In this document: positions 870-33,013 of the stretch, in pieces
How positions within the stretch are numbered: position 1 is the first letter of the stretch
Layout: each line of letters starts with the position of its first letter
Source: an uncultured Candidatus Saccharibacteria bacterium
Lineage (GTDB): Bacteria; Patescibacteriota; CALEFQ01
Reading direction: 5' to 3'
DNA length: 64,000 bases
NCBI GenBank assembly: GCA_965230955.1
Contig: OZ246404.1
Coordinates: 500,995-564,994 of the forward strand
Position numbers and translations under genes: made by a program
Notes under the pieces: generated by a model
Databases searched by the model: none
What the model was told of the DNA's origin: nothing
Seen by the model: only the letters and a program-made list of their open reading frames with translations

Positions 870-877
870 TTGGATTT

Positions 878-6765: not shown

Positions 6766-7464
6766 ATGGCCAGCGGTAAATTAAACTATGTATCATCCAT
6801 TGATACCGGCGCTCCGACTTTGGTGCAACGGTCGTCTTTTGACAATTATGTTTCTTACTTTCGGGGGAAAAAAGTCTTGGATGTCGGGTGCTGGACCGGC
6901 GGCTTTGAACACTATTTACAAACGGCGACGGATCAGGCTTATGCGATCGAATTGGAGCCGGCCGCTCTAAAGATTGCCCAGAAGCGCTATCCAAAAGTGA
7001 AGTTCCAACGGGGCACTGTTTTTTCCATTCCATATCCGGACAGTACTTTCGATGTTGTTACCTTGTGGTGGGTAATGGAGCATCTGCCGATCGACTCCGA
7101 GATTCGAGCTTTCAAGGAGATTCGTCGAGTACTAAAATCCCGAGGACACTTCATTTTGAGTGTCCCGCATTGGCATTGGTTTAATAATATCCTCGATCCG
7201 GCATTTTGGCTGAAAGGTCATCGCCACTACCAGGCGCGGCATGTCACTCAAATGCTGAAATCTGCCGGATTGGAAGCCAAGCAAATTAGGATTCAGGGAA
7301 GGTTTTGGTATTGTTTTTCCGTCGATGTTTTTTATTTCTGGAAGCATATTTTGCGCCGGCCGATGCCCGCCCGTTGGCAAAATTGGTTTGATCGACGGAT
7401 TGAAAAGGAATTACGCCGGGTGGGCTACGGCGATTTGTATATATTATCGCAAAAAGATGAATAA
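6766..7464 (+). CDS. class I SAM-dependent methyltransferase (Methyltransf_11/23-like)
   Basis: Glycine-rich SAM motif KVLDVGCWTGGF; acidic motif II region. 232 aa. Confidence 0.8.
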   Translation: MASGKLNYVSSIDTGAPTLVQRSSFDNYVSYFRGKKVLDVGCWTGGFEHYLQTATDQAYAIELEPAALKIAQKRYPKVKFQRGTVFSIPYPDSTFDVVTLWWVMEHLPIDSEIRAFKEIRRVLKSRGHFILSVPHWHWFNNILDPAFWLKGHRHYQARHVTQMLKSAGLEAKQIRIQGRFWYCFSVDVFYFWKHILRRPMPARWQNWFDRRIEKELRRVGYGDLYILSQKDE

Positions 7465-8386
7465 CTTAAAGATATCGGTTATTATCCCGGTTTATAATCG
7501 ACGGGAGGAAGTTGCCGAATGTCTACGGACCGTTTTTTCCAGTGATTATGATAATTACGAGGTCGTTGTTGTCGATGATTGTTCTCGGGACGGTACCGTT
7601 GCTTACTTGTCGCGGAATTTCCCCGCGGTTAAGCTTTTGGCCAATAAGGAAAATCACGGTGCGGCTTTTTCTCGAAATGCCGGGGCTCGTGTGGCCAGTG
7701 GGCAAATTTTATTCTTCCTGGACTCCGATACCGCCATTGCTCCCGACACATTGTCAAAAACGGCCGAGATCTTTGCTCGCTATCCCGATGCCGGCTTGGT
7801 TGCGCCGATAATTTATTATTTTTGCGATCCGAAAAGAATTTGGTATGCCGGAGCTTTTATCGACCAGTGGACCAGTCGAGCTCACTACCGCGGGATCAAT
7901 GAAATTGATCGGGGTCAATATCGCGAAGGCGAAATACCGAACGGCCACGCGCCGACGGCCTCGGCGATTAAGCGCGAAGTCTTGTTTCGCGCCGGTTTAT
8001 TCGAGGAAAGAGAAGACTTTTATATGGGGTTTGAAGAGCCGGATTTGGCCAAAAGGATTGAACGGCAGGGAGGACGATTGATTTTTGCTCCGGCGGTAAA
8101 GGTTTGGCACAAAATTCCCGTCCCGGAATTTAAGGACAGCCGAGCCCGGGAATTCTTGTTCTATATCAGCTTTCGCACGCCGAAAGTCGCTTATACCACT
8201 TCGCGCAATCGAGTTACATACATGCGAAGATATGCTCCTAAGTTTAATTATTTTGTTTTCCGTTTGGTTTTTCTGCCGCTTAGTCTGGCGATTTATTGGT
8301 TAAAGAGCGTTTGCTCTCATCAGCCGGATATGTGGAAGAATATCTGGCGGGGTACGCGAGCCGCTTTAAAACAAAAAAATGTTTAA
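7457..8386 (+). CDS. GT2 family glycosyltransferase
   Basis: ISVIIPVYNRREE...VVVDDCSRDGT...FLDSD. ATG at 7457 overlaps the upstream stop by 8 nt; the longer 7325 ORF extension overlaps the methyltransferase gene and was rejected. Confidence 0.8.
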   Translation: MNNLKISVIIPVYNRREEVAECLRTVFSSDYDNYEVVVVDDCSRDGTVAYLSRNFPAVKLLANKENHGAAFSRNAGARVASGQILFFLDSDTAIAPDTLSKTAEIFARYPDAGLVAPIIYYFCDPKRIWYAGAFIDQWTSRAHYRGINEIDRGQYREGEIPNGHAPTASAIKREVLFRAGLFEEREDFYMGFEEPDLAKRIERQGGRLIFAPAVKVWHKIPVPEFKDSRAREFLFYISFRTPKVAYTTSRNRVTYMRRYAPKFNYFVFRLVFLPLSLAIYWLKSVCSHQPDMWKNIWRGTRAALKQKNV

Positions 8387-9857
8387 AGTACTATTTGTCA
8401 TTCCCAGGAGTAAAAATTTGTTTGGCGACGAGGTGAAGACCAAACAAGGTGAAATTGTATTTGGCGGACATCCCCATGTTGGGATTGCCTATTTGATTGC
8501 CGTATTGCGCCAAAATAACATTGAGGCGAAGGTTTTTGATACGTTGGTCGAGAATGACGACCGAAAATTGCTTCAACTGATGAAAGATTATCAGCCGAAT
8601 TTGATTGGCATCACCGGTTTCAGCTATAGTTACGGCTATGTCAAAGCTATTATCGATCTGGTCACTGATCAAGCCGATTGTCCGGTAGTGCTGGGAGGCC
8701 CACATGTTTCCGCTACCAAAAAACTCTGTTTTAAGGATAATCGCGCCTCCCTGGCGATCAAGGGCGAGGGGGAAGTCACCTTTTTGGAATTAATCCGGGA
8801 ATTACAAAAGCCCGTCTCGGATTTTTCAAAAGTTGACGGGTTGATTTGGCGCCAAGATGGCGAAATAATCGAAAACAGAGACCGTCCTTTTTTGCGCGAT
8901 TTGGACAGTTTGCCGATTCCGGCCTATGAAGCTTTTAAGTTGGATCGCTATTTATACACCAAGCAACACAAGATGCCGATTATTACCTCGCGCGGCTGTC
9001 CTTATGGCTGTAATTATTGTTCGGTGCGTCTTTCGATGGGGCGTAATTTCCGCCCCCGCAGTCCGGAAAACGTAGTGGGGGAAATTGAGCATTGGTACAA
9101 GCGCGGGTGGTGTAATTTTGAATTTAATGATGATTGTTTCAATGTCGACATGGATCGAGCGAAAAAAATTTGCGATTTAATCATCGGTAAAAAGCTGAAG
9201 ATAAAATATGAGTTGTACAACGGGATTCGGGTCGATCGGATTGACGAGGAATTATTACGAAAGATGAAAGCCTCCGGCTGTATTTTCATTTCTTATGGCT
9301 GTGAATCCGGCAGCCAAAAAATTCTCGACCGAATCGGCAAAAAGATAAAATTGCCCCAGGTGCGCCAGGCGGTTCAATTGACCAACAAGGTTGGTATCAA
9401 AAATTCCGTTAACTTTATTATCGGCCATCCGGGCGAGACTATCGAAACAGCGATGGAGTCGATCCGTTTTGCCGATTCTCTGCCGACCAATTTCGTCAAT
9501 TTCTATAATCTGGTGCCTTATCCCGGCACGGAATTATTTGAATGGGTGGATAAAAATGCACGGTTTTTGGTGCCAAAGAAGACTTACCTGGAAAGCATAT
9601 CTTATCGCGATAATAAGCCCGTCTTTGAAACTCCGGAATTTTCGCGCCGAGAACGCATGAAAGTGATAAAGAAAGGCTTCAATTTGTACGAAAAGAAAAT
9701 ACTGGAATTTCGCCTGGGCAAAGCCGGTGGTCGGATAATGTACGGTCTGACTCGGCTCGGTCCGATCGGTAAATGGGCGAGGCAATTTGCCCTAGAAAGC
9801 AAATTTGGTAATAAAATCTATCAGATGCTTTCCGCGAATTCTCGCGCCAGTGACTGA
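8379..9857 (+). CDS. B12-binding domain-containing radical SAM enzyme (class B rSAM)
   Basis: N-terminal Rossmann-like cobalamin-binding region (IGITGF...VVLGGPH) followed by CxxxCxxC rSAM motif SRGCPYGCNYC and the GHPGET stretch. 492 aa. Confidence 0.85.
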   Translation: MFKVLFVIPRSKNLFGDEVKTKQGEIVFGGHPHVGIAYLIAVLRQNNIEAKVFDTLVENDDRKLLQLMKDYQPNLIGITGFSYSYGYVKAIIDLVTDQADCPVVLGGPHVSATKKLCFKDNRASLAIKGEGEVTFLELIRELQKPVSDFSKVDGLIWRQDGEIIENRDRPFLRDLDSLPIPAYEAFKLDRYLYTKQHKMPIITSRGCPYGCNYCSVRLSMGRNFRPRSPENVVGEIEHWYKRGWCNFEFNDDCFNVDMDRAKKICDLIIGKKLKIKYELYNGIRVDRIDEELLRKMKASGCIFISYGCESGSQKILDRIGKKIKLPQVRQAVQLTNKVGIKNSVNFIIGHPGETIETAMESIRFADSLPTNFVNFYNLVPYPGTELFEWVDKNARFLVPKKTYLESISYRDNKPVFETPEFSRRERMKVIKKGFNLYEKKILEFRLGKAGGRIMYGLTRLGPIGKWARQFALESKFGNKIYQMLSANSRASD

Positions 9858-9913
9858 TCCGACCGGTTTCGGCTGGCGAAGTTAAATCATTACATTTGAA
9901 TAAGCTGAGAGAT

Positions 9914-10675
9914 ATGAATAAATGGCAAAACATCCAACAGGAGCATACCGACGAATTGGTTCGGCAGGGTACGTATCATCACGATCGTGATGTTTTTTCA
10001 CAATCTCCCGCCCAGAAACGTAAGCTAGATAATTTTTTTAGAATTGCCGATTTTCCGCCCAAGAGTCATTTGCTTGAGGTTGGTGGGGGCACGGGCAAGT
10101 ATACTATACCGGCTCTTCAACGAGATTATCGCGTCACGGCCAGTGATATTTCCATGTCGGCATTAAAACAATTGCGACATGACGCTCAAGAGCTGGGGGT
10201 TGATCGAAGGTTAGTCGCAACTGTTTGTCGACCGACAGAGCAATTCGATTGGTCGAACAATTTTGACGGCGGTTTTTGCGTGGACGTACTCCATCATCTC
10301 AGCAGTATTGAATTGGGGCTGGAACGAATTTTTAACGCCTTGAAACCCGGAGCGAAATTTGTAGCCTACGAACCAAATGGCGCTAATCCGATTTGGCGCA
10401 TCGCGGGGGCGGTTTGGCCGCCGTTTGATTGGAAATATGAAAAAGGATTAGTCCGTTGTACTTCCCGAAACTTGTTTAACTTGTTTACCAAGATTGGATT
10501 TCGCGATGTCAAAATTACCTATATGTCATTGTTTCCCCGTTTTTTGCATGATCGCTTTCGATTTCTTAATTCTTGGGAAGATAAGATCCTGGGCCATTCT
10601 TTTTGGCGTAAACTGGGAGGATTGATTATTGTCCAGGGTAAAAAACCGCATGAAAATACTGATCTTAAATCCTAA
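9914..10675 (+). CDS. class I SAM-dependent methyltransferase
   Basis: LLEVGGGTGKYT glycine-rich motif; VDVLHHL. ATG at 9914 (ORF track start 9896 is TTG). Confidence 0.75.
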   Translation: MNKWQNIQQEHTDELVRQGTYHHDRDVFSQSPAQKRKLDNFFRIADFPPKSHLLEVGGGTGKYTIPALQRDYRVTASDISMSALKQLRHDAQELGVDRRLVATVCRPTEQFDWSNNFDGGFCVDVLHHLSSIELGLERIFNALKPGAKFVAYEPNGANPIWRIAGAVWPPFDWKYEKGLVRCTSRNLFNLFTKIGFRDVKITYMSLFPRFLHDRFRFLNSWEDKILGHSFWRKLGGLIIVQGKKPHENTDLKS

Positions 10676-11855
10676 TATCTGGATGGGCGGAGGCGCTCAA
10701 AAAGCCCTGATCCGCCAAGCTCTTGGTTTGCAAGAATTGGGGCACCAGGTTTTTATATTAACGACCAGGATTGATCGCCGGGAGCGGCCGGATATTCTGA
10801 ATCGATTAAATATCACCGTCGCGGATATCCCGCTGGTTTTTTATCGGGATAACCAGTATTTGCCATTAGAAAATAAATTGGTTTTGCTTAGGAATTTTTT
10901 CCGGCTGAAGAAAGCGATTAAGAAATTTGTTCGACAGCATCAAATTGACATTGTCAATCCTCAGCAAACGCCCATGCACTGGCTCTGCGGCGGCTTATCG
11001 GTTCCGGTTGTTTGGACGTGTTATGAGCCGATATCTTTGTGGCCTTCAAACAAGCCTTATTTCATAATCGGCGCCAAGAAGTTGACGGTCTTTGGCCGAC
11101 TTGCCCGATATATCTTTGAAAATTTCGACCGTCGATATGTGCGACGGCATGTCAGGAATATAATCGCCATTTCAGAAATGGTTCAGCGTGATATCAAGAT
11201 TCTATATGGATTATCCGCCCGGGTGGCTTATTTGCCTGTCGATACCGAGCTGTTGGCGACGGCCGATCCGGAGCGGGCACGCCGCCGTCTGAATATTAAA
11301 TCGTCCGATTTTGTCGTCACTCAGGTTGCCCACTTAAAGCCGGTAAAAAATCAGCGTTGTACGATCGATACCGCTAAATTGTTATTGAACAAAATTTCCA
11401 ATCTTAAAATTTTGTTGGTTGGCGGCGGACCGGATCATCAACCCTTGCTTGATTACGCCAATCGGCAAGGGCTGGCCGATCGGACAATTTTCGTTGGTCC
11501 ACAGACTGATATTCAAACAGCTGACTGTTTAGCGGCTAGCAATGTTCTGATTTTACCCGCGCGACATCAGACTTGGGGATTGGTTATATTTGAAGCTTTG
11601 TCGGCTGGGGCTTTGCCGGTCGTGGCCAATGATTGCGGGGCCAGAGTCGTTATCGAAAAAGAAAAAATCGGCTTATTGTCGGAACCGCGGCCGGAAAGTT
11701 TTGCCGCGATGATTTTTAAAGCTTATTCCGATAAAGAAAAGATGGCGGAATTGGTGCAGAGAGGAAAAAAATATACCCAGCGATATTTGAGTTACACCGG
11801 TTATGCTCAGAAAATTGATGATATTTTCCGGGAAATTGTTAACAAGGCCAGTTGA
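10650..11855 (+). CDS. GT4 (group 1) glycosyltransferase
   Basis: MKILILNPNIWMGGGAQK N-terminus. C-terminal LVGGGPD...LILPARHQTWGLVIFEALSAGALPVVAND. ATG at 10650 overlaps the upstream stop. Confidence 0.8.
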   Translation: MKILILNPNIWMGGGAQKALIRQALGLQELGHQVFILTTRIDRRERPDILNRLNITVADIPLVFYRDNQYLPLENKLVLLRNFFRLKKAIKKFVRQHQIDIVNPQQTPMHWLCGGLSVPVVWTCYEPISLWPSNKPYFIIGAKKLTVFGRLARYIFENFDRRYVRRHVRNIIAISEMVQRDIKILYGLSARVAYLPVDTELLATADPERARRRLNIKSSDFVVTQVAHLKPVKNQRCTIDTAKLLLNKISNLKILLVGGGPDHQPLLDYANRQGLADRTIFVGPQTDIQTADCLAASNVLILPARHQTWGLVIFEALSAGALPVVANDCGARVVIEKEKIGLLSEPRPESFAAMIFKAYSDKEKMAELVQRGKKYTQRYLSYTGYAQKIDDIFREIVNKAS

Positions 11856-11880
11856 CATCGAGCCGCTTTTTTACGATAAT
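11852..11880 (+). promoter_or_regulatory. sigma70-like internal promoter TTGACA-17-GATAAT overlapping the GT4 stop codon
   Basis: ttgaca 11852-11857 (contains TGA stop of upstream gene), 17-nt spacer, gataat 11875-11880; 30 nt upstream of the GT2 ATG at 11910. Confidence 0.5.
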
Positions 11881-11909
11881 GTATCAGTTAGTCCTGGTAA
11901 CAAATAGCC

Positions 11910-12575
11910 ATGAAAACTACTGCCTGTATACCAACAAAAAATGAAGCAAAGGGGATAAAACAGGTTATCGCCGGAGTTCAGCCGTATGTCGACGAAATTC
12001 TAGTCGTCGATGGTCATTCTAGTGATCAAACCCGTGATTTGGCCCGAGAGTGCGGAGCGAGAGTTTTATTGGATAATTGCCGCGGTAAAGGCGCTGGTTT
12101 GCGTTTGGGTTTGCGGGAAGCCGGTGGAGATATCGTGGTTTTTATTGATGCGGATGGTTCGCATGACCCGAAGGATATTCCACAATTAATAGCTCCGATC
12201 AAGGAAAACAAGGCTGATTTAGTGGTTGCGTCTCGAGCGAAAGGCGGAAGTGATGAGTATCACATGAAATTTGGCCATTTGATCAGGCAATGGGGCAGTG
12301 AGTTTGCGGCGCTGACTATTAATTATCGCTGGAAAGTTGATTTGACCGATGTCCAGAATGGTTTCCGCGCCATCAAAAAAACGGTGGGATTAAAAATAAA
12401 TCTCAATGCCAACGATTTTGATATTGAGCAGGAAATGGTTATGAAAACCCTGAAGAATGGCTACCGTATTGTCGAAATCGGCAGCCATGAATCTTCACGC
12501 AGTTGGGGCAGTTCAAAACTGCCTACCTCCAAAGCCTGGAAATTCTTATATCGATTACTTAAGGAACTATTTTGA
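11910..12575 (+). CDS. small soluble GT2 glycosyltransferase (DPM1/GtrB catalytic-domain-like, no TM anchor)
   Basis: CIPTKNEAKGI...VVDGHSSDQTRD...FIDADGSHDP. 221 aa without C-terminal helices. Confidence 0.75.
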   Translation: MKTTACIPTKNEAKGIKQVIAGVQPYVDEILVVDGHSSDQTRDLARECGARVLLDNCRGKGAGLRLGLREAGGDIVVFIDADGSHDPKDIPQLIAPIKENKADLVVASRAKGGSDEYHMKFGHLIRQWGSEFAALTINYRWKVDLTDVQNGFRAIKKTVGLKINLNANDFDIEQEMVMKTLKNGYRIVEIGSHESSRSWGSSKLPTSKAWKFLYRLLKELF

Positions 12576-14014
12576 TGAAAGTTTATCTTATCAATCCGCC
12601 CGCGGTTAAGGGCGTGCGTATGGTACGCGAAGGCCGTTGTATGCAACGCGAAGGGGCTTGGACGGCAGTCTGGACTCCAATTTCGTTGGCATTGTGCGGA
12701 GCGGTGCTGGAAAAGTATGGGATGGAGTGTAAATTAACTGATTGCATTGTCGAGGAAATTGATTTGGCAAAATTGCAATCATTGGTTTCTGAGTTCAAGC
12801 CTGATTTGGTGGTTCTTAACACGGCAACTCCGTCTATTAACGGAGATTTGAAAGTCGGATCTTATTTGAAAAAAGTTTGTCCCTCGGTCAAGGTCGCGGC
12901 CATCGGCATCCATGTTACCGCAATGCCGGAGGATTCATTAAAAATTTCCAGCGGGCTTGATTATATCGTGAGCGGTGAGCCGGAGTATACCATTTTGGAG
13001 TTGGCCCGGAGACTGAAAACAAAGGCTTCTCCCGATGATATCAAAGGAATTATTTTGTCTCGGCAGGGCAAGATGATTGTAAATCCGCCTCGCCCCTATA
13101 TCGATAATCTGGATGAACTTCCTTTTCCGGCTTGGCACCTGATCGATAAAACCAAATACAAGATGCCTTTTTTGAACCGACCGTTTTTTCTTATTGCCAC
13201 CGGCCGGGGTTGTCCTTATAAATGCACTTTTTGCGCCGATTGCGCCTACTACGGTAAAAAATTGAGGCTCCGCACGCCAAAAAATATCGTTGATGAACTG
13301 GAATGGGCCGGCAAAAAACACGGGGTGATTGATTTTCTTTTTTGGTCCGAGTCATTCACGATCAATCGGCAATTTGCCAAAGATGTGGCTGATGAAATTT
13401 ACCGCCGGAAGCTGAAAATCCACTGGGTTTGCAATAGTCGCGTGGATAATGTTGATGAGGAATTGCTTCGTAAAATCAAACGGGCCGGTTGTTGGATGAT
13501 CGGCTATGGCTTAGAGTCGGCCAATCAAAAAATTCTCGACTCGGTCAAGAAGGGGATTAAGGTTGAGCAGACTATTCGGGCGGTAAAACTTTCTAAAAAA
13601 GCCGGCCTGGATGTTACGGCTCATTGCGTTCTCGGTTTCCCCGGCGAAACCGAAGAAACTATCAAGGAAACGATTCGACTGACCAAGAAGTTGCCTGTGG
13701 ATTTTGCGCAGTATTATTGTTCGGTTCCTTTCCCGGGATCGGAATTATATCAACAGGCGATTGATAGCGGTTGGGTCAATACGGACAACTGGGAACGTTT
13801 CGAGCAGAATTTTTCTATCATTGATATGCCCGGACTTTCATCCGAACGTGTAATGCAACTGCGGAAACAGGCTTATAAAGAATTTTATGTTCGCCCGCGG
13901 ATCGCGCTAAAGACACTGGGGCGAGTTCGGAATTTACACGACTTCTTGGAATTATTCCGGATGGTTCGGGCTTTCACCGATTGGACAAAAAAGGAAGATC
14001 AATGCGCCAGCTAA
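12575..14014 (+). CDS. B12-binding domain-containing radical SAM enzyme (class B rSAM), paralogue of 8379-9857
   Basis: TGRGCPYKCTFC rSAM motif. Shares ELLRK(I/M)K(R/A)(A/S)GC and (F/H)PGET(E/I)ET blocks with the first rSAM. TGATG overlap with upstream GT2 stop. Confidence 0.85.
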   Translation: MKVYLINPPAVKGVRMVREGRCMQREGAWTAVWTPISLALCGAVLEKYGMECKLTDCIVEEIDLAKLQSLVSEFKPDLVVLNTATPSINGDLKVGSYLKKVCPSVKVAAIGIHVTAMPEDSLKISSGLDYIVSGEPEYTILELARRLKTKASPDDIKGIILSRQGKMIVNPPRPYIDNLDELPFPAWHLIDKTKYKMPFLNRPFFLIATGRGCPYKCTFCADCAYYGKKLRLRTPKNIVDELEWAGKKHGVIDFLFWSESFTINRQFAKDVADEIYRRKLKIHWVCNSRVDNVDEELLRKIKRAGCWMIGYGLESANQKILDSVKKGIKVEQTIRAVKLSKKAGLDVTAHCVLGFPGETEETIKETIRLTKKLPVDFAQYYCSVPFPGSELYQQAIDSGWVNTDNWERFEQNFSIIDMPGLSSERVMQLRKQAYKEFYVRPRIALKTLGRVRNLHDFLELFRMVRAFTDWTKKEDQCAS

Positions 14015-17000
14015 TAAAAATTTTGTTGCCAATCGTGATCACGGTTGGTCTGGCTATTGTTTTTGTAGTCATCGCTTTTGATCGGCCGGCCGGCAATAGG
14101 TTGGCCGATTTTGATGTCTCAGCCTCAAATAACAGCTGCCAATCGCAATTTGATTCGCGGGGCAATGTCGGAATTTCTTATTCTCGGGCCGATGACTGTA
14201 ATGTGGAATTCACGGCAAAGTCACGGCTTTTGATTGAAAATATCGATCGAATAGATATGAAATACCTGGTTGCTGAAAATATAATTAAGGACGATCTGGT
14301 CAATATCGAAGTTTTCGGTCCGAATTGGAAGTTGATCAGCAAGAATAATTATCGAATCAGTTCCGGCATGGATTCAATCCCAGTTGACTTGCCTCAGCAG
14401 TTCAACGGTGAAATCAGTGTCATAAGATTTATTTTTTACCGCAGTGCTTTTACCGACCCGGCCGAGATAGATATTCGGTCGCTACAGTTTAGCTCCGATA
14501 ATTCTCCGAGCTGGTTTTCTGTTGTCCCGCAAATCGCCAATAAATTTGTTACCGCCGGGGCAATGATAAAAGTAGGTTTAATCAGTTTTGCCTATTATTT
14601 TTCTCGCGCCTTAAATATCCCCGTGCTGCTAAATACGATTTTGGGATTAAGCGGCATTCTAGTCTGCTTTCTTAGCGGTTGGATTATGGCGCGTCGGCTT
14701 TTTCATCAGTCTGAATTTTTACCGGCTGTATTGGCGGCTTTGCTGTTGGGTTTGGCTCAACTGACTCTGACCATGCTGGCTCTATCCTTGTTTCATCTCA
14801 TGTTTGCCGGCCCGGTCTTGGGTCTCAATTTGGCTTGTCTCGTTTTCTTGATAATCAGATATCGGTATCGATTTAGCTGGTCGCGCGCTCTGTTGCCGGT
14901 GCAAGGTTTACTACAGAAAGCTAGAAAAAATTTGTTTGTGTTTCTGGGGGTCACCATGGTTGCTGGCTTACTCCTAATTACTCTGATTCAAGCTTTGAAC
15001 GCCGCACCTTTTGGTTATGACGCCTTGGCTTATCATTTACCGATGGCGGTAGAATGGTCTGAATCGGGTCAAGTTTTCCCTATCAGTTTATCTAGTTTTC
15101 TCAGTTATATGCCCGGGGGTGCGGAATTGCTGATGTCGTACATAATCATGGCTTTTCGAAGTGACTTATTGACCAGTCTTATTCAATTGCCATTTCTTAT
15201 TATAACGGCTTTGGCGGTATATCAAATTGTCAGGAACCTCGGCGTTAGGCGAGTTGGCGCCATGATTGGAGCGCTGTTGGTTTTTTGCATTCCTGTTTTC
15301 ATCAAGGAAACTCAGCGGGCTTATATCGATTTAATTTTTATGGCGCTGGTGATGCTGGCGCTAAACTATGGTATTCAGTTTTGGCGCCGATTGGATCGAG
15401 CCAGCCTGCTTCTCGGAGCCATAACTGTCGGTTTGGCCATAGGCATGCGCTACACGGCTTGGCATTTTTTACTACCAATCTTGATTTTGTATTTGGTTGC
15501 GATGATTCGTTTTGTTCGTCAAAAGGCTTCATCGCGCCTGTTTCATTTCATTAAATTGTTATTAATTTTTATCGGCGCGGTTCTAATCTTCGGAGGATAT
15601 TGGTATATCAGGAATTGGATTATAACCGGCAATCCTATCTATCCTTCCGCTTTAGCGCCTGGAGGTTTTACTCTTTTTGATAGCGGAGTCAGCACGTCTT
15701 ATGCGAATTTTTTGTCGAGCATGACTATTTTCCCAAACTTCGGCGATATTAATTGGACGGCGCATCGCGAAGCGATTCTGACTGCCTTTGGAGCTCCTTT
15801 TCTGTGGGCGATGATGATTATTCTGATAGGCGGTTTGGTTGGTAATTTTATAGTCAAAAACACTTGGTCGGAAAAAATACTGCGGCTGTTTTTGATTTTG
15901 TTGCCTATTTATTCTATCTTCATATTCACGACCATTCCTTTTAGCTCTATTATCAATCAGTCGATGCGTTATGTTTTTGTTTTTGTTCCCCTGACAGCGG
16001 CCGTTTTGGGTTTTATTGCCGGTTGGCACAAGGTTTTTACCTGGCTGGCCGGTCTTTCCGTCCTAGGCCTTTTGATTAGTTCCTTCTGGCCGCTAGCGTT
16101 GTTTGATAAGAATAATACTATCAACTTTCCTTTTTCCGGTACAAAATTATTGGTTATTCTGTTGGTTGTTGCCTGGCTGTTGTTCCTTTTTTGGCCAATC
16201 CTTAATAAAATAATGGCCAATCGCTGGGGAAAAAATATATTACTGATTGCGATTTTGATTGGTAGCCTGGGCTTCATTGTGGGTTTTACCAATGATTATC
16301 AGATCAATAAATATTCGTGGTATCAATCGAATTACTATCAAGTTGGACAAGCGGCAAATTGGATCGATCAGAATGCCGACGGAGAGGGAATTAACCTGAT
16401 CGGTATAGATCGTCCATATCCTTTTTACGGCCGTAATTTCAAGAACAAGATTTATCAATTAAACTCGAATTCCGATCGAGATCTTCTTTATCATGAGTAC
16501 CGACGACCGTTTAAAGAAGATTGGCGAGATTACGGGCAATTAAATGTTCGACTGACTCGAAGTGGGCCGAATGATGATTCGCCTCTGCATTTAAAGCTTA
16601 ATTTTTATTCTACCGACGACAAAAATAACTATGTCCAGCTTGGTTCTTTGTCTGGGGAAATCACTGTCGGTACCAATGATTTCAGTCTGGATTTAGCCGA
16701 GTTATCGGCGCGCGACCGGGTCGTTATTATGGAATGGCAAATGACCGGTTTGGGCGATTCGGATGAATTGAAAATTGATGAGTTGGTGCTGACCGATCGT
16801 TCGTCTAAATCACCCAATTTTCCCGAAGATTTAGCAATTTTACCTAACACCTGGGAGGTAGGCGGGGAATGGCAAAATTCCGATTCAGTCTATTATGCTA
16901 CGCTTGATCGTGATTACCTTCTGCGAGTCGATTCGCCGGCAGGTGATAATGATACCGGCCGAAGTGGATATATTAAAGCCTATTTCAATACCAATGAATT

Positions 17001-17202
17001 TGGGCACATTTACGAAAATCCCAATAAAGAAATCTGGCTCCGCAATTTAAAAGAGAATGACATTAGATTTGTGGTTTCCACTTATAGCTCGACTGGAAAT
17101 GAGCGGCCGGAAATGCAGTGGATCGGCCAGCAGCCCGATATTTTTTCGGAAGTTTATTCAAATGACATGATCAAAATATTCAGGATTGATTGGCCTAATT
17201 GA
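14002..17202 (+). CDS. giant (1066 aa) polytopic membrane protein, GT-C-like. N-terminal TM, then about 170 aa ecto-domain, about 14 TM core, then about 400 aa C-terminal ecto-domain
   Basis: Hydrophobicity pattern. First-loop acidic/aromatic motif PFGYDALAYHLPMAVEW resembling GT-C first-loop motifs. RBS AAGGAAG 3 nt upstream of ATG 14002 (TTG at 13981 also in frame); stop of rSAM at 14012-14014 overlaps. Confidence 0.5.
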   Translation: MRQLIKILLPIVITVGLAIVFVVIAFDRPAGNRLADFDVSASNNSCQSQFDSRGNVGISYSRADDCNVEFTAKSRLLIENIDRIDMKYLVAENIIKDDLVNIEVFGPNWKLISKNNYRISSGMDSIPVDLPQQFNGEISVIRFIFYRSAFTDPAEIDIRSLQFSSDNSPSWFSVVPQIANKFVTAGAMIKVGLISFAYYFSRALNIPVLLNTILGLSGILVCFLSGWIMARRLFHQSEFLPAVLAALLLGLAQLTLTMLALSLFHLMFAGPVLGLNLACLVFLIIRYRYRFSWSRALLPVQGLLQKARKNLFVFLGVTMVAGLLLITLIQALNAAPFGYDALAYHLPMAVEWSESGQVFPISLSSFLSYMPGGAELLMSYIIMAFRSDLLTSLIQLPFLIITALAVYQIVRNLGVRRVGAMIGALLVFCIPVFIKETQRAYIDLIFMALVMLALNYGIQFWRRLDRASLLLGAITVGLAIGMRYTAWHFLLPILILYLVAMIRFVRQKASSRLFHFIKLLLIFIGAVLIFGGYWYIRNWIITGNPIYPSALAPGGFTLFDSGVSTSYANFLSSMTIFPNFGDINWTAHREAILTAFGAPFLWAMMIILIGGLVGNFIVKNTWSEKILRLFLILLPIYSIFIFTTIPFSSIINQSMRYVFVFVPLTAAVLGFIAGWHKVFTWLAGLSVLGLLISSFWPLALFDKNNTINFPFSGTKLLVILLVVAWLLFLFWPILNKIMANRWGKNILLIAILIGSLGFIVGFTNDYQINKYSWYQSNYYQVGQAANWIDQNADGEGINLIGIDRPYPFYGRNFKNKIYQLNSNSDRDLLYHEYRRPFKEDWRDYGQLNVRLTRSGPNDDSPLHLKLNFYSTDDKNNYVQLGSLSGEITVGTNDFSLDLAELSARDRVVIMEWQMTGLGDSDELKIDELVLTDRSSKSPNFPEDLAILPNTWEVGGEWQNSDSVYYATLDRDYLLRVDSPAGDNDTGRSGYIKAYFNTNEFGHIYENPNKEIWLRNLKENDIRFVVSTYSSTGNERPEMQWIGQQPDIFSEVYSNDMIKIFRIDWPN

Positions 17203-17207
17203 CAAAC

Positions 17208-19946
17208 ATGCCAACCCCTAGTCGAAAATTGTTTTTCCTGATATTTATCGGCATCGTAATCGCGTTGGGTTATTTTGCTTTGCGCCAGACGTTCGTCAAT
17301 CCCGGCACCTTGGGTCATAATTGGGACTGGTCATTTCCCGCTCTCGCATCGCAATTAGCCACAGCTATGCCGAAGATGTTTTCCAGCTGGTCATACACCA
17401 GTCTGGGATCGCCCGCAATTTTAAGCATTCCGGTCAATCTGTTGCTGGCGGTTTTTTTCTCCTTTGGAACGATCGGTATCTCCGGAGAACTTGTCTCTAA
17501 AGCTGTAGTATTCAGCACCTTGATTATTGGCAGTATCGGGATGTATCTCTACCTGGGGCTGTTCTTTTTGAGATCGGCCAAACCCACTTGGCTCGGTGTT
17601 TTACCGGTTTTTCTGGGTGCCGTCTTTTTCGGATTCTCTCCATTCATCTTTAGTGAATTTATTGGCGGGGCGGTGTCGCAGTTCATTTCTTATGCCGTCA
17701 TTCCTTTCGCTTTGTTTTTTTTCGCCTTGTCGCAAAATTCTGCCAAATTTCGTTGGTTTTTGATATTCGCTACAGCCTTGGTTTTATCGATACTCACGAT
17801 TTCGACCCATAATTTGATCATCGCGGTTGTTTTAACGGTTCTCTTGATTGTCGTTTCCGAGAATCGCCGCCGATACTTCTGGAGCTTGATCGGATTGGCT
17901 GCGTTTTATATCCTGATGAATTTATACTGGATGATTCCGTTTGTTTCAGAATTATTTTTTGCTCAGACCTTTTTTGAATCTGAATCATTTTTGTCGCTGA
18001 TCAATGTCATTAAGGCGGCCCCGAATATTGCCCGAGCTTGGTTTCAGATCGGTTATGCCCGACTCTTTTTTGAAAACATCATGTCGGTTGCCTGGCTGCC
18101 TTGGTGGATCTTGGGTGTCGGCGGTTTCTGTGCGGTGCTTATCGGTTCGGTTTTAAAATCAAAAAACAAGTACGCAAATTTTTGGTTATTGTTATTTCTC
18201 GGGGCACTGGTTTTCGTCACGGCCGGTGTGGCGCCGCTCGGGGAGCAAGTGGTTTGGTTATTCCAAAATGTTTCAGTAATTCGAGGTTTTAGATCAATTC
18301 AGCATTTCATTCCAGTCAGCGTCTTTACCTTTTCGGTTGTATTGGCTTTTGGTGTTAATTTTATCTTGATCCGCCTGAAACCGGCTAATAAATTTATCGG
18401 CCAAGCGGTGATAGCCGTGCTAGTTTTGGGCACGGCGGTCTGGATCGCCCCTTTTATCATCAGCGGCGATATTGGCAGTGCCAAGCTGGCTGAACGAGAG
18501 ATGAGCTATATTGATAGTTTCCAATTGTCGCCCGGCTATATCAAGGCGCACCAATTAATCAACGAGGAAAAAGAAACTGTCAGATTTTTGCCTTTGCCGG
18601 CCGCATTTTCTCCTGTTTATCTGCCGACTGAATATCAAGCCTATGCCCAGGGCGGCGATCCTACACTGTCCACGTTTGCTATTCCGGCTGTTGTGGCAGA
18701 TTTCGCGCCACAGGGGCATCCCAAGAAAATGATGCAGGTTTTTGAAAAGAATATTTGCGAGGAAAACCTTTCGCCGTCCGAAAACAATCAGTTGCTGTCC
18801 TTGCTAAATATCAAATATATAATGCAGCGGCAAGATCTCGAACCCAACCCCGGCAGTCTCTGCAGTAAACGTTGGTTTCCTGATTTAATTGATGATTATT
18901 TGCGATCCGATCCGGGCTTAAAATCTGTTTTTAGTGAAGATTACATCAAGCTTTACCAGTTGTCCGATTATTTTCCGAGAATTTATGCCGCAAATCGTAA
19001 CCTCATGATTGATGGTCCGGTCGATACGCTAAATGACGTTATTAAACATGATGATCTGCAGTTATCCACTAATATTTTTTTTACTGATCTGAAACCTTCT
19101 CCTCGGCCAGACCAGATTTCCACTAATTACCTTCGGCAGAGTTTTGAGGTCGAAGATACCCAGTTTCTAGAGGCTTCCGGTATATGGTCGAGTGACAAAG
19201 GCAGTACCACCAGAGATATAATTTATCCGGCCAGCGGGTCGGAATTCAACGAGCTGGTTTATAAAATACCGATTAAGGAATCCGGGCAATACGAGTTATA
19301 TGTTAAAATAAGACATGACACCGACGAAGGTCTGCTGCAAGCGACGATCGATGGGGAAAAAATAGGCCAACCGCTCGATGTCTATTACAAAAGTCCTTAT
19401 TCGGCTGAAGGCAAAAGTTCATATTACTACCAATCGGTAAAAGTTGGAGATGTGGACCTGGCTGCCGGCGATCATCAGTTTAGCTTTGCCAGTCTACCCG
19501 CTCTGGATAAAAGGCTCGAAAAATACAAGCAGAGCCTGGACATGTTTTATCTGGTGAAAATAGAAAATTCTTTTATAGAGTCGGAACAAGGCGCTCTGCC
19601 CGCTGTGCAATTTTCGCAAACCAGTCCGACGACCTACCGGGTTAGTGTCTCCGGCGCCAACGCCCCGTACTACCTTAATTTCTTGGAAACATATAATTCC
19701 AACTGGAAATTACGGATAAATGGACAAGAAATTTCTGCGGATAAACATTTCGTTGTTAATGGCTATGCCAATTCTTGGCGTATAGACAATCAACAAGATT
19801 GGCAGGGTGAAATAGTGTATCGGACCCAAGAGTTGTTTTATCTCGGCCTGTGGTTGTCCGGCTTGGGGGCTCTGGCCTTGCTGATGTTAACTTTATCTCT
19901 GCCGTATTTTGCGAAGAAGCCTAAGCAAATCGACTATGCCAAGTAA
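17208..19946 (+). CDS. YfhO-like GT-C membrane glycosyltransferase (about 12 TM, C-terminal ecto-domain, terminal TM helix)
   Basis: N-terminal loop GHNWDWSFPAL; C-terminal module SNWKLRINGQEISADKHFVVNGYANSWRI...YLGLWLSGLGALALL (pattern W-K-x-x-x-N-G ... N-G ... terminal TM) as in YfhO-family proteins. Contains AAGDHQFSFASL beta-module motif. Confidence 0.5.
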   Translation: MPTPSRKLFFLIFIGIVIALGYFALRQTFVNPGTLGHNWDWSFPALASQLATAMPKMFSSWSYTSLGSPAILSIPVNLLLAVFFSFGTIGISGELVSKAVVFSTLIIGSIGMYLYLGLFFLRSAKPTWLGVLPVFLGAVFFGFSPFIFSEFIGGAVSQFISYAVIPFALFFFALSQNSAKFRWFLIFATALVLSILTISTHNLIIAVVLTVLLIVVSENRRRYFWSLIGLAAFYILMNLYWMIPFVSELFFAQTFFESESFLSLINVIKAAPNIARAWFQIGYARLFFENIMSVAWLPWWILGVGGFCAVLIGSVLKSKNKYANFWLLLFLGALVFVTAGVAPLGEQVVWLFQNVSVIRGFRSIQHFIPVSVFTFSVVLAFGVNFILIRLKPANKFIGQAVIAVLVLGTAVWIAPFIISGDIGSAKLAEREMSYIDSFQLSPGYIKAHQLINEEKETVRFLPLPAAFSPVYLPTEYQAYAQGGDPTLSTFAIPAVVADFAPQGHPKKMMQVFEKNICEENLSPSENNQLLSLLNIKYIMQRQDLEPNPGSLCSKRWFPDLIDDYLRSDPGLKSVFSEDYIKLYQLSDYFPRIYAANRNLMIDGPVDTLNDVIKHDDLQLSTNIFFTDLKPSPRPDQISTNYLRQSFEVEDTQFLEASGIWSSDKGSTTRDIIYPASGSEFNELVYKIPIKESGQYELYVKIRHDTDEGLLQATIDGEKIGQPLDVYYKSPYSAEGKSSYYYQSVKVGDVDLAAGDHQFSFASLPALDKRLEKYKQSLDMFYLVKIENSFIESEQGALPAVQFSQTSPTTYRVSVSGANAPYYLNFLETYNSNWKLRINGQEISADKHFVVNGYANSWRIDNQQDWQGEIVYRTQELFYLGLWLSGLGALALLMLTLSLPYFAKKPKQIDYAK

Positions 19947-32913: not shown

Positions 32914-33013
32914 GGTGATCAACTCATCAGATCATTTGTCTCGCCAAGGTAATTATTCTTTTAAGCATGGGAGATCCCATTCGGGAAATACTTAAAAGAA
33001 TAATTAGCTTGGC

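What the first reader, a model, noticed from the sequence alone, without database searches (positions are those of the whole stretch)
8379..14014. Two paralogous cobalamin-dependent radical SAM enzymes plus two SAM methyltransferases embedded between glycosyltransferases
8379-9857 and 12575-14014 both carry an N-terminal B12-binding Rossmann region and a CxxxCxxC motif, and share several blocks (ELLRK.K..GC, .PGET.ET). Class B rSAM enzymes typically methylate unactivated carbon (for example GenK, Fom3, HpnP). Here each is flanked by GT2/GT4 genes and a class I methyltransferase (6766-7464, 9914-10675), and the second is translationally coupled to the giant GT-C block. This predicts C- and/or O-methylated (or otherwise radical-modified) sugars in the surface glycan. 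It also implies cobalamin dependence, notable if the host is a reduced-genome organism.
Basis: partly seen in the sequence, partly recalled or inferred. Interest (0 to 1): 0.65.

Follow-up and report, generated by a model that had tools for sequence, protein, structure and literature searches.

The report
Sugar-editing radical enzymes paired with glycosyltransferases
Two B12-type radical SAM enzymes in a tiny-genome (CPR) bacterium each sit directly behind their own glycosyltransferase in gene cassettes conserved across many uncultured bacteria and archaea, which suggests an undescribed way of chemically editing sugars, probably while lipid-linked, before they reach the cell surface.

Summary
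8379-9857 (rSAM1) and 12575-14014 (rSAM2) both have a B12-binding domain, a radical SAM domain and a CxxxCxxC motif. They are 36% identical and lie in one tightly overlapping plus-strand glycan operon.

They belong to two separate, widespread, uncharacterised orthologous families, each 45-60% identical across phyla. No curated family cut-off is reached.

Each family has a conserved partner:
- **Cassette A (6766-10675):** methyltransferase, GT2, rSAM1, methyltransferase. The same order occurs in a Methanolobus MAG and in Omnitrophota.
- **Cassette B (11910-21474):** a Dol-P-Man-synthase-like GT2, rSAM2, then GT-C membrane transferases.

A GT2 lies directly upstream of 63% of orthologues, against 9% of other genes in the same loci. 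Some orthologues of both families are fused to a class I methyltransferase.

My best reading is that rSAM2 edits a polyprenyl-phosphate-linked sugar before GT-C enzymes transfer it. This resembles ArnC/ArnD/ArnT and hpnI-hpnJ. C-methylation is the most likely chemistry but is unproven. The nearest named relatives, HpnJ and BchE, and the best fold match, AprD4, are not methylases.

The host is a Patescibacteria genome on a 1.14 Mb contig. No cobalamin gene or riboswitch is in the window. Actual cobalamin use could not be tested.

The parts
6766..7464 (+). MT1, a class I SAM methyltransferase and first gene of cassette A
   Evidence: Pfam Methyltransf_11 at 69.5 bits. Its stop overlaps the ATG at 7457 of the next gene. 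MT1-like genes recur upstream of rSAM1 orthologues. The methyltransferase domain fused to rSAM1 orthologue P0144 is 26% identical to MT1, E 8e-17.
7457..8386 (+). GT2c, a family 2 glycosyltransferase and the dedicated partner of rSAM1 (the ORF can be read from 7325; the likely start is ATG 7457)
   Evidence: Pfam Glycos_transf_2 at 116.7 bits. No TM segment, and the stop overlaps the rSAM1 ATG by 8 nt. The gene directly upstream of rSAM1 orthologues is a GT2 in 49 of 71 loci. Best PDB relatives are chondroitin synthase and PglI-type GT2s. No RxxGxSK motif.
8379..9857 (+). rSAM1, a B12-binding-domain radical SAM enzyme (B12 domain about nt 8469-8792; CxxxCxxC at nt 8997-9020)
   Evidence: Its orthologous family is 49-74% identical in bacteria and archaea. 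AF2 model pLDDT 88.7. Best fold matches are CysS, MgmA, TsrM and AprD4. All NCBIfam hits are far below cut-off.
9914..10675 (+). MT2, a class I SAM methyltransferase and last gene of cassette A (the ORF can be read from TTG 9896)
   Evidence: Pfam Methyltransf_12/11. The gene directly downstream of rSAM1 orthologues is a class I methyltransferase in 30 of 58 loci. An MT2-like domain is fused to the C-terminus of rSAM2 orthologues in Planctomycetia loci L054 and L065.
10650..11855 (+). GT4b, a GT4 glycosyltransferase between the two cassettes (the ORF can be read from 10629)
   Evidence: Pfam Glycos_transf_1 at 93.3 bits. The same GT4-GT2s-rSAM2 order occurs in the 84%-identical relative L176.
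11910..12575 (+). GT2s, a short soluble Dol-P-Man-synthase-like GT2 (a putative polyprenyl-phosphate sugar synthase) and the dedicated partner of rSAM2
   Evidence: Best PDB match is P. furiosus Dol-P-Man synthase 5mlz, E 1.2e-17, over the whole catalytic domain, with the DAD, D...GF and R..G.SK motifs aligned. NCBIfam AglJ 125.7 bits and PpgS 83.2 bits, both below cut-off. No TM segment. Orthologues 42-61% identical lie upstream of rSAM2 orthologues in 46 of 61 loci. R..G.S is invariant in 40 of 40.
12575..14014 (+). rSAM2, a B12-binding-domain radical SAM enzyme, HpnJ/BchE-like (B12 domain about nt 12668-13003; CxxxCxxC at nt 13211-13234)
   Evidence: NCBIfam HpnJ 281.7 bits (cut-off 577.6) and BchE 221.9 bits. 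30% identical end to end to a true HpnJ, E 6e-61. Its orthologous family is 44-84% identical across at least 10 phyla. AF2 pLDDT 90.8. Best fold match is AprD4, TM 0.77-0.83.
14002..17202 (+). GTC1, a large polytopic membrane protein (GT-C type), translationally coupled to rSAM2
   Evidence: About 17 predicted TM segments and an ATG that overlaps the end of rSAM2 by 13 nt. Pfam PMT_2 26.7 bits against a cut-off of 26.1. Synteny with L176.
17199..19946 (+). GTC2, a GT-C type membrane protein (AftD-like N-terminal domain)
   Evidence: Pfam GT-C_AftD 26.2 bits against a cut-off of 26; about 14 TM segments.
19909..21474 (+). GTC3, a polytopic membrane protein with weak PMT_2 similarity
   Evidence: About 15 TM segments. 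Pfam PMT_2 E 0.0076, below cut-off.

Best explanation
The region holds two conserved glycan-tailoring cassettes. Each is built around a class-B-architecture radical SAM enzyme and its own family 2 glycosyltransferase.

Cassette B (GT2s, rSAM2, GT-C genes):
1. GT2s, a soluble Dol-P-Man-synthase-type enzyme, loads a monosaccharide onto polyprenyl phosphate at the cytoplasmic face.
2. rSAM2 cleaves SAM to a 5'-deoxyadenosyl radical and abstracts a hydrogen from the lipid-linked sugar. Using the cofactor in its B12 domain, it modifies that carbon. C-methylation via methylcobalamin is the most likely outcome.
3. The edited lipid-linked donor is flipped, and the downstream GT-C enzymes transfer it to the surface glycan.

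Cassette A (MT1, GT2c, rSAM1, MT2): an ordinary GT2 adds a sugar to a growing glycan or lipid-linked intermediate. rSAM1 and the two class I methyltransferases then decorate that residue.

Shown: domain architecture, family identity, conserved adjacency, fusions, the Dol-P-Man-synthase-like nature of GT2s, and enrichment of GT-C genes. Inferred: the substrate, the order of steps, the chemistry, and actual cobalamin use.
For: - **Domains and motifs:**
- **Families:** rSAM1 and rSAM2 are two distinct, strongly conserved orthologous families. Each was monophyletic in all 87 valid replicates of a rough NJ bootstrap.
- **GT2 partner:** a GT2 is the immediate same-strand upstream neighbour of 77 of 123 orthologues (63%), against 94 of 1008 (9%) other genes in the same 160 loci. 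GT2s orthologues lie within 3.2 kb upstream in 46 of 61 rSAM2 loci, and 27 are directly adjacent. A GT2 lies upstream of rSAM1 orthologues in 49 of 71 loci.
- **Operon structure:** start and stop codons overlap throughout.
- **GT2s identity:** it aligns over its full length with P. furiosus Dol-P-Man synthase, including the DAD, D...GF and R..G.SK motifs. R..G.S is invariant in 40 of 40 orthologues, while the strict R..G.SK motif is absent from 77 GT2c-like genes.
- **GT-C association:** the gene after rSAM2 orthologues is a polytopic membrane protein in 22 of 57 loci, against 1 of 57 for the gene before. Large polytopic proteins occur at 1.23 per 10 kb within 5 kb, against 0.55 further away.
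- **Minimal modules:** MT-MT-GT2s-rSAM2-PMT_2 in Omnitrophota L164, and GT2s-rSAM2 alone in L177.
- **Methyltransferase link:** MT-GT2-rSAM1-MT keeps the same order in a Methanolobus MAG and in Omnitrophica. Both families include class I methyltransferase fusions.
- **Precedents:** hpnI (GT2), hpnJ (B12 rSAM), hpnK share the same gene order, and HpnJ is thought to act on a lipid-linked glucosamine (PMC13459092). Auxiliary enzymes act on lipid-linked donors in three-component systems (PMC11127046).
Against: - No biochemical data exist for either family.
- About a quarter of rSAM2 loci lack a GT2s within 3.2 kb upstream (15 of 61). Several Omnitrophota and Planctomycetales loci instead carry a GT9 gene upstream, in two cases with an MT2-like gene directly before rSAM2.
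- The GT-C neighbours are not orthologous between loci. No GtrA- or MATE-type flippase lies next to the cassette.
- The nearest named relatives of rSAM2 (HpnJ, BchE) and its best fold match (AprD4, which binds no cobalamin) are not methylases.
- The residue aligned with the hydrophobic lower-axial Trp76 of TokK is Pro86 in rSAM2.
- rSAM1 loci show no GT-C enrichment, so its substrate level is less constrained.
- The strict R..G.SK motif is present in only 16 of 39 GT2s orthologues.
Confidence: 0.5

Rival explanations
1. rSAM2 (and possibly rSAM1) is not a methylase. Like HpnJ or calditol synthase, it rearranges a lipid-linked hexose, for example by ring contraction to a cyclitol or carbasugar, or it carries out another redox-neutral or oxidative radical reaction. 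The class I methyltransferases then O-methylate the product.
For: HpnJ is the best curated match: 281.7 bits over the full length, against at most 149 bits for any methylase family. rSAM2 is 30% identical end to end to a true HpnJ, with a shared N-terminal motif and a shared 'DLVV..T.TPS' loop. The gene order GT2 then B12-rSAM is the same as hpnI-hpnJ. The NJ tree places the rSAM2 family next to the HpnJ clade. HpnJ and Cds are proposed to contract lipid-linked sugars (PMC13459092).
Against: The HpnJ score is half the family cut-off. The tree node joining the two has no support. BchE scores almost as well by BLAST. The HpnJ reaction itself has never been reconstituted. Every characterised group in the class B network includes C-methyltransferases (PMC12931638).
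Confidence: 0.25
2. The radical SAM enzymes act after glycosyl transfer, on a sugar already in the glycan or on an undecaprenyl-diphosphate-linked repeat unit, or before it, on a nucleotide sugar. They do not act on a polyprenyl-monophosphate sugar. The GT2 adjacency then only reflects 'add this sugar, then decorate it'.
For: The partner of rSAM1 (GT2c) is an ordinary GT2 without the R..G.SK motif, and its loci show no GT-C enrichment. Some rSAM2 loci have GT9 instead of GT2s. The known sugar-directed class B enzymes GenK, GenD1 and Fms7, listed in PMC12931638, act on free pseudo-oligosaccharides (my own knowledge).
Against: For rSAM2, the partner is specifically a Dol-P-Man-synthase type and GT-C genes follow. 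The minimal module GT2s-rSAM2-PMT_2 in L164 carries no other glycan genes apart from two upstream class I methyltransferases.
Confidence: 0.3
3. The N-terminal Rossmann domain does not bind cobalamin. The enzymes are AprD4-like cobalamin-independent radical sugar dehydratases or deoxygenases.
For: AprD4 (6fd2) is the best sequence hit in the PDB for both proteins. It is also the best fold match for rSAM2, TM 0.77-0.83 over the full length. It acts on an aminoglycoside sugar. The host is a CPR organism with no cobalamin gene in this window.
Against: The AprD4 family profile matches only the radical SAM core (profile positions 161-400 of 456) and scores 95-111 bits against a cut-off of 500. The Pfam B12-binding profile matches both N-terminal domains above its gathering score over nearly its whole length. 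Cobalamin-binding OxsB, TsrM, MgmA, CysS and TokK give comparable fold scores. No AprD3-like reductase partner was seen.
Confidence: 0.1
4. The enzymes modify a lipid (the polyprenyl carrier or a membrane lipid) or a peptide (RiPP-like, as ApyD does), not a sugar.
For: Class B enzymes modify lipids (GDGT, hopanoids, ladderanes; PMC13459092). The best NCBIfam hit of rSAM1 is the RiPP enzyme ApyD, 174.6 bits.
Against: All scores are far below cut-off. The conserved neighbours are glycosyltransferases, methyltransferases and nucleotide-sugar enzymes. No precursor-peptide or lipid-synthesis gene is conserved nearby.
Confidence: 0.07

Closest known systems
HpnI / HpnJ / HpnK (bacteriohopanetetrol cyclitol ether synthesis)
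   Same: A GT2 gene is followed directly by a B12-binding-domain radical SAM gene. rSAM2 is 30% identical to HpnJ over its whole length, with shared N-terminal and Rossmann-loop motifs. The proposed substrate is a sugar attached to a lipid (PMC13459092).
   Different: rSAM2 scores 281.7 bits against a cut-off of 577.6. There are no hopanoid genes in the window. The GT2 partner is Dol-P-Man-synthase-like, not HpnI-like (HpnB and HpnI hits are only E 1e-6 to 1e-4). No HpnK deacetylase is present. GT-C transferases follow instead.
Three-component extracytoplasmic glycosylation systems (GtrA/GtrB/GtrX; ArnC/ArnD/ArnT; polyprenyl-phosphoribose synthase + epimerase + GT136; DprE1/E2 + Aft/Emb)
   Same: A polyprenyl-phosphate sugar synthase-type GT2 occurs with GT-C transferases. 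Auxiliary enzymes are known to edit the lipid-linked donor before transfer: the epimerase in PMC11127046, and ArnD and DprE1/E2 from my own knowledge. The window also holds a classical ArnC/PgfS-like GT2 (851-1822, 203 bits) near a PMT-type GT-C.
   Different: As far as I could find, no described system uses a radical SAM or B12 enzyme as the editing step. No GtrA- or MATE-type flippase is adjacent. GT2s lacks the membrane anchor of GtrB and ArnC.
Characterised class B radical SAM C-methyltransferases acting on sugars or small molecules (GenK, GenD1, Fms7, Fom3, TokK, CysS)
   Same: The architecture is the same: an N-terminal B12 Rossmann domain and a CxxxCxxC TIM barrel. Folds are similar (TokK, CysS and MgmA matches). 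No DxHxxG motif, consistent with base-off/His-off binding (PMC12931638).
   Different: Only 17-22% identity to any solved member. No curated methylase family cut-off is met. Those enzymes belong to secondary-metabolite clusters, not to cell-surface glycan operons with GT-C enzymes.
AprD4 (radical SAM 1,2-diol dehydratase of apramycin synthesis, PDB 6fd2)
   Same: It is the best PDB sequence hit for both proteins and the best fold match for rSAM2, at similar length. Its substrate is a sugar.
   Different: AprD4 binds no cobalamin (PMC12931638). Its family profile matches only the radical SAM core here, at 95-111 bits against a cut-off of 500.

Membership tests
Class B (cobalamin-dependent) radical SAM enzymes | CxxxCxxC motif for the radical SAM [4Fe-4S] cluster within a Radical_SAM (PF04055) domain | tested here: met
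   CPYGCNYC (residues 207-214) and CPYKCTFC (residues 213-220). PF04055 scores 76.9 and 101.9 bits against a cut-off of 29.5. The cysteines are invariant in both family alignments.
Class B (cobalamin-dependent) radical SAM enzymes | N-terminal Rossmann-type B12-binding domain recognised by profile | tested here: met
   PF02310 scores 53.3 and 52.9 bits against a cut-off of 32.1, covering profile positions 11/12-120 of 121. The AF2 models show the alternating strand-helix N-terminal domain.
Class B (cobalamin-dependent) radical SAM enzymes | Overall fold matches solved cobalamin-bound members | tested here: met
   Foldseek matches to TsrM, MgmA, CysS, OxsB and TokK at E 1e-19 to 1e-27, TMq 0.62-0.74. 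The cobalamin-free AprD4 matches as well or better.
Class B (cobalamin-dependent) radical SAM enzymes | Cobalamin is actually bound and required | not testable with these tools
   No sequence motif is diagnostic, because binding is base-off/His-off (PMC12931638). No DxHxxG motif. Purified protein is needed.
Class B radical SAM methyltransferases (functional subset) | Methyl transfer to substrate via methylcobalamin, or membership of a curated methylase family | tested here: not met
   PhpK, Sden_1168, HpnR, KedN5, RiPP C-methyltransferase, Trp 2-C-methyltransferase and MgmA profiles all score far below their cut-offs, for example PhpK 154.8 against 600. This tests only membership of known families. 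The chemistry itself cannot be tested here, and structure does not separate methylases from other members (PMC12931638).
HpnJ (TIGR03471) | Score at or above the curated cut-off of 577.6 bits | tested here: not met
   rSAM2 scores 281.7 bits and rSAM1 151.5 bits. rSAM2 is 30% identical to a true HpnJ.
HpnJ (TIGR03471) | Hopanoid gene context (hpnI, hpnK, shc) | tested here: not met
   No hopanoid-related family was found among the window ORFs. Compare the true operon in L172.
BchE (TIGR02026) | Score at or above the curated cut-off of 481.35 bits | tested here: not met
   221.9 bits (rSAM2) and 154.8 bits (rSAM1). No bacteriochlorophyll genes in the window.
AprD4 family (NF033070) | Score at or above the curated cut-off of 500 bits over the full length | tested here: not met
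   110.7 and 94.7 bits, matching the radical SAM core only.
Three-component (polyprenyl-phosphate sugar) glycosylation system | Polyprenyl-phosphate sugar synthase of the DPMS/GtrB/ArnC type | tested here: inconclusive
   GT2s aligns over its full length with Dol-P-Man synthase 5mlz (E 1.2e-17), with the DAD, D...GF and R..G.SK motifs aligned. However, the AglJ and PpgS profiles score below cut-off (125.7 against 325; 83.2 against 370), and the acceptor has not been shown.
Three-component (polyprenyl-phosphate sugar) glycosylation system | GT-C fold transferase encoded with the synthase | tested here: met
   GTC1 matches PMT_2 at 26.7 bits (cut-off 26.1) and GTC2 matches GT-C_AftD at 26.2 bits (cut-off 26). 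Each has 14-17 predicted TM segments, and the genes overlap. Polytopic proteins are enriched next to rSAM2 orthologues.
Three-component (polyprenyl-phosphate sugar) glycosylation system | Dedicated small flippase (GtrA, MATE or similar) | tested here: not met
   None lies adjacent. Only Wzx-type genes are present, at 24936-26402 and 40566-42047.

The most novel reading that the evidence does not exclude
A widespread, undescribed 'four-component' surface glycosylation pathway. A Dol-P-Man-synthase-like GT2 makes a polyprenyl-phosphate sugar. A dedicated B12-radical SAM enzyme (the rSAM2 family) remodels its carbon skeleton while it is lipid-linked, by C-methylation or by HpnJ-like ring contraction to a carbasugar or cyclitol. 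GT-C enzymes then install this unusual sugar on the envelope. The pathway would operate in CPR bacteria, DPANN archaea, Omnitrophota, Elusimicrobia, Planctomycetota and Thermoleophilia. It would make ultra-small symbionts depend on scavenged cobamides to build their cell surface.
Probability: 0.3. Interest if true: 0.75.

Novelty: new variant of a known kind. Interest (0 to 1): 0.55.

Why it matters
- **A testable function for large unexplored groups.** Class B radical SAM enzymes form a large superfamily whose biggest groups are functionally unexplored (PMC12931638). This analysis gives two sizeable uncharacterised families a concrete hypothesis: sugar editing tied to a dedicated glycosyltransferase, in one case at the polyprenyl-phosphate donor level.
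- **New chemistry for a known system.** If correct, it adds radical chemistry to the three-component glycosylation paradigm and predicts unusual sugars (C-methyl, branched or carbocyclic) on the envelopes of uncultured lineages.
- **A possible symbiosis dependency.** It implies a cobamide requirement for envelope synthesis in organisms with roughly 1 Mb genomes, which bears on how episymbiotic CPR and DPANN cells depend on their hosts.
- **A route to experiments.** Related clusters on plasmids of cultured Lawsonia and Solidesulfovibrio make experiments possible.

Tried and rejected
- **tRNA and Rfam scans of the window.** Nothing was found, including no cobalamin riboswitch.
- **Cobalamin genes.** Pfam scans of the window ORFs found no cobalamin synthesis or uptake gene. 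The rest of the 1.14 Mb genome could not be reached with the tools.
- **Deciding methylase or not from the lower-axial residue.** TokK Trp76 aligns with Pro86 in rSAM2. By eye it aligns with Tyr83 in rSAM1. This is too uncertain to use.
- **NJ phylogeny with HpnJ, BchE and plasmid homologues.** The first run timed out. The second shows that both families are monophyletic, but the deep nodes are unsupported. Thirteen of 100 bootstrap replicates failed on saturated distances. No characterised methylase sequence was available to include.
- **Literature searches.** I searched for radical SAM with polyprenyl phosphate or GT-C, with CPR, and with O-antigen. No paper described such cassettes.
- **Which window methyltransferase matches the fused domains.** In rSAM1 orthologue P0144 the fused domain is closer to MT1 than to MT2. 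In rSAM2 orthologues it is MT2-like. There is no one-to-one assignment.
- **RiPP or mycofactocin-like reading.** Rejected: the MftF, MftM and ApyD hits are weak and generic, and the context is entirely glycan genes.
- **GT-C orthology between loci.** tblastn found almost none, so only the protein class is conserved.

Full report
**1.
The window carries a long plus-strand operon of glycan genes. The ORF at 8379-9857 (rSAM1, 492 aa) and the ORF at 12575-14014 (rSAM2, 479 aa from the ATG) each match Pfam B12-binding. The scores are 53.3 and 52.9 bits against a gathering score of 32.1, over nearly the whole 121-position profile. Each also matches Radical_SAM, at 76.9 and 101.9 bits. Each has one CxxxCxxC motif, at nt 8997-9020 and nt 13211-13234. 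The two proteins are 36% identical over 377 residues, E 3e-67. The two class I methyltransferases and the GT2 and GT4 genes are as described. rSAM2 overlaps the ATG (14002) of a 1066-aa protein with about 17 TM segments by 13 nt.

The other junctions also overlap: MT1 stop with GT2c ATG at 7457, GT2c stop with rSAM1 ATG at 8379, and GT2s stop with rSAM2 ATG at 12575. The genes are therefore co-translated units. The GT2 before rSAM1 most likely starts at 7457 rather than 7325.

**2. Two different, widespread, unnamed families.**
rSAM2 has more than 100 listed relatives of about 471 aa at 50-59% identity, plus two closer ones at 84% and 72%. A scan of one genome per species found 80 loci at 44-58% identity. 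They come from Nitrospirota, Elusimicrobia, Patescibacteria, Thermoleophilia and other Actinomycetota, Planctomycetota, Omnitrophota, Clostridia, Desantisbacteria, and Woese- and Nanoarchaeota. Nearly all are metagenome-assembled. rSAM1 likewise has more than 100 relatives of about 483 aa at 52-61% identity, including archaeal metagenome-assembled genomes labelled Methanolobus, Halobacteriota and Aenigmarchaeota.

No curated NCBIfam family is reached:
- rSAM2 best hits: HpnJ 281.7 bits (cut-off 577.6), BchE 221.9 bits.
- rSAM1 best hits: ApyD 174.6, PhpK 154.8, BchE 154.8, HpnJ 151.5 bits.

In a rough NJ tree each family is monophyletic, in all 87 valid bootstrap replicates. rSAM2 sits next to an HpnJ clade, but without support. 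A profile of the rSAM2 family finds 24,510 cluster representatives at E ≤ 1e-30 in a 1.84-billion-protein library. This reflects the size of the surrounding superfamily.

**3. Each enzyme has its own glycosyltransferase.** This is the main new result.
- In 61 rSAM2 loci with at least 3 kb of upstream sequence, 46 have an orthologue of the small GT2 at 11910-12575 (GT2s, 42-61% identical) within 3.2 kb upstream on the same strand. Of these, 27 are directly adjacent. In Thermoleophilia one extra B12-rSAM paralogue lies between the two genes.
- In rSAM1 loci the immediately upstream gene is a GT2 in 49 of 71 cases. The immediately downstream gene is a class I methyltransferase in 30 of 58 cases.
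- Over all 160 loci, a GT2 is the upstream neighbour of 63% of orthologues, against 9% of other genes in the same loci.
- The order MT-GT2-rSAM1-MT in the window (6766-10675) recurs unchanged in a Methanolobus MAG and in an Omnitrophica genome.
- Some rSAM1 orthologues are fused to a class I methyltransferase: P0134, P0144, P0192 and P0214. Some Planctomycetia rSAM2 orthologues carry a C-terminal MT2-like domain.
- The 84%-identical relative keeps the whole order GT4-GT2s-rSAM2 followed by proteins of 1070, 913, 513 and 784 aa.
- Minimal versions exist: MT-MT-GT2s-rSAM2-PMT_2 flanked by unrelated genes in Omnitrophota, and GT2s-rSAM2 alone in another Patescibacteria genome.

**4. What the partners are.**
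GT2s (221 aa, no TM segment) aligns over its whole length with the catalytic domain of Pyrococcus furiosus dolichol-phosphate mannose synthase (5mlz, E 1.2e-17). The DAD, D...GF and R..G.SK motifs align. R..G.S is invariant in all 40 GT2s orthologues. The strict R..G.SK motif is absent from 77 GT2c-like genes. Within the window it occurs only in GT2s and in the ArnC/PgfS-like GT2 at 851-1822. That this motif marks polyprenyl-phosphate glycosyltransferases is my own recollection of the DPMS, GtrB and ArnC families. No tool tested it.

GT2c resembles ordinary glycan-extending GT2s such as chondroitin synthase and PglI.

The gene after rSAM2 orthologues is a polytopic membrane protein (at least 380 aa and 7 TM segments) in 22 of 57 loci. 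The gene before it is polytopic in only 1 of 57. Recognisable PMT_2 and YfhO GT-C families are among these downstream genes. Large polytopic proteins are about twice as dense within 5 kb as further away. rSAM1 loci show no such enrichment.

**5. Structure.**
The AlphaFold models are confident, at pLDDT 90.8 and 88.7. Both match solved class B enzymes (TsrM, MgmA/9ccb, CysS, OxsB, TokK) at E 1e-19 to 1e-27. For rSAM2 the top match is AprD4, a cobalamin-free radical sugar diol dehydratase, at TM 0.77-0.83. The AprD4 family profile matches only the radical SAM core here, whereas the B12-binding profile matches the N-terminal domains. I therefore consider loss of cobalamin binding unlikely, but it is not excluded. 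There is no DxHxxG motif. That agrees with the base-off, His-off binding seen in all solved members (PMC12931638). The same review states that non-methylating members show no structural feature that separates them from methylases. The chemistry therefore cannot be settled in silico.

**6. Mechanism proposed.**

*Cassette B:*
1. GT2s makes a polyprenyl-phosphate sugar.
2. rSAM2 edits it at the cytoplasmic face.
3. The donor is flipped.
4. GTC1-3 transfer it to the surface glycan.

The logic follows known systems in which an auxiliary enzyme acts on the lipid-linked donor between synthase and GT-C. One is the epimerase of the pentofuranose three-component systems (PMC11127046). ArnD and DprE1/E2 are others, from my own knowledge. 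It also follows hpnI-hpnJ-hpnK. There a GT2 gene is followed directly by a B12-radical SAM gene, and the enzyme is thought to contract a lipid-linked glucosamine (PMC13459092). rSAM2 is 30% identical to a true HpnJ from end to end.

*Cassette A:* GT2c adds a sugar, and rSAM1 with MT1 and MT2 decorates it.

I rate C-methylation as the most likely chemistry. It is the commonest class B reaction, and the conserved or fused class I methyltransferases point to a heavily methylated residue. A non-methylating rearrangement is a serious rival for rSAM2.

**7. Host and cobalamin.**
The window's CTP synthase is 100% identical to a protein found on an NCBI contig of 1,136,458 bp. The nearest named relatives are 'Patescibacteria group bacterium' at 79% and ACD_63C at 75%. 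The host is therefore a reduced-genome CPR bacterium. No cobalamin synthesis or uptake gene and no cobalamin riboswitch is present in the 64 kb. The rest of the genome could not be examined.

**8. Comparison and novelty.**
The proteins are new members of the class B radical SAM architecture. At the system level, a Dol-P-Man-synthase-like GT2 joined to a B12-radical SAM enzyme and GT-C transferases, and the MT-GT2-rSAM-MT cassette, were not found in the searchable literature. I classify the finding as a new variant of a known kind.

Analogous but non-orthologous clusters lie on plasmids of Lawsonia intracellularis and Solidesulfovibrio carbinolicus. The Lawsonia cluster includes a GT2s-like gene (32% identical, E 6e-23) followed by two DUF2304 genes. 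These offer experimental entry points.

**9. Verdict.**
The glycan-tailoring role is well supported by conserved context. The lipid-linked substrate for rSAM2 is a reasoned inference at about 50%. Methylation and cobalamin use are untested.

Noticed in passing
window 851-1822 (+), 11910-12575 (+), 38967-39923 (-); GT-C genes at 2967-5483, 14002-17202, 17199-19946, 19909-21474: The window encodes three polyprenyl-phosphate-sugar-synthase-like GT2s: one ArnC/PgfS-like with two C-terminal TM segments, one short DPMS-like, and one AglJ-like. It also encodes at least four GT-C membrane transferases. Several lipid-linked donors are therefore probably used, and only one synthase is paired with a radical SAM enzyme.
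   Followed up: partly
window 23805-24896 (+), 26472-27503 (-), 31747-32922 (-), 33014-34120 (-); 35710-36318 (-), 36308-37285 (-), 37289-37903 (-): A Patescibacteria genome carries four GT9 'heptosyltransferase' genes next to GmhA-like SIS, PfkB kinase and HAD phosphatase genes. This suggests a heptose-containing surface glycan in an organism not expected to make LPS. GT9 genes also recur next to rSAM2 orthologues.
   Followed up: no
L054 10001-12175; L065 59-2269; proteins P0134, P0144, P0192, P0214: Orthologues of both radical SAM families occur as fusions with a C-terminal class I SAM methyltransferase domain. These are Rosetta-stone links between the two enzyme types.
   Followed up: partly
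L170 (Lawsonia intracellularis plasmid 1, NC_008012.1, 7091-26518): A 27-kb plasmid of an obligate intracellular pig pathogen is largely a glycan cluster. It holds a GT2s-like gene (32% identical to GT2s), two DUF2304 genes, SIS, a B12-radical SAM gene (31% identical to rSAM2), five class I methyltransferases, a second radical SAM gene, HAD, a GHMP kinase and DUF2142.
   Followed up: partly
L171 (Solidesulfovibrio carbinolicus pDCAR1, NZ_CP026539.1): This plasmid of a cultured sulfate reducer has five places matching rSAM2, next to glycosyltransferase, epimerase, acyltransferase and SIS genes.
   Followed up: no
L002 10311-11393 and 15031-16104; L176 6099-7124; L177 8430-9324: Smaller radical SAM genes without a B12 domain (Fer4_12 or SPASM type) lie directly beside GT2 genes in CPR glycan loci. 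In L002 and L176 the radical SAM gene follows the GT2 (GT2 301 aa then rSAM 341 aa in the near relative of this window). In L177 it precedes it. The pairing of a GT2 with a radical SAM gene is therefore not restricted to class B enzymes.
   Followed up: no
proteins P0383 (2331 aa), P0392 (2096 aa), P0413 (2633 aa), P0423 (2279 aa): The representative library contains giant proteins with three to six separate stretches matching the rSAM2 profile. They may be multi-domain B12-radical SAM fusions or mis-called genes.
   Followed up: no
window 21464-23821 (+), 29792-31744 (-), 34226-34810 (+), 34921-35652 (+), 58962-59822 (+): Several ORFs within or beside the glycan island have no Pfam match at all. 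They include a 785-aa protein with terminal TM segments that overlaps the last GT-C gene, and a 650-aa protein between GT4 and GT9 genes.
   Followed up: no
L003-L163 (160 loci): Besides the anchors, the loci hold 131 further B12-radical-SAM-like paralogues, up to four per 20 kb. These glycan islands of uncultured lineages are unusually rich in class B enzymes.
   Followed up: partly
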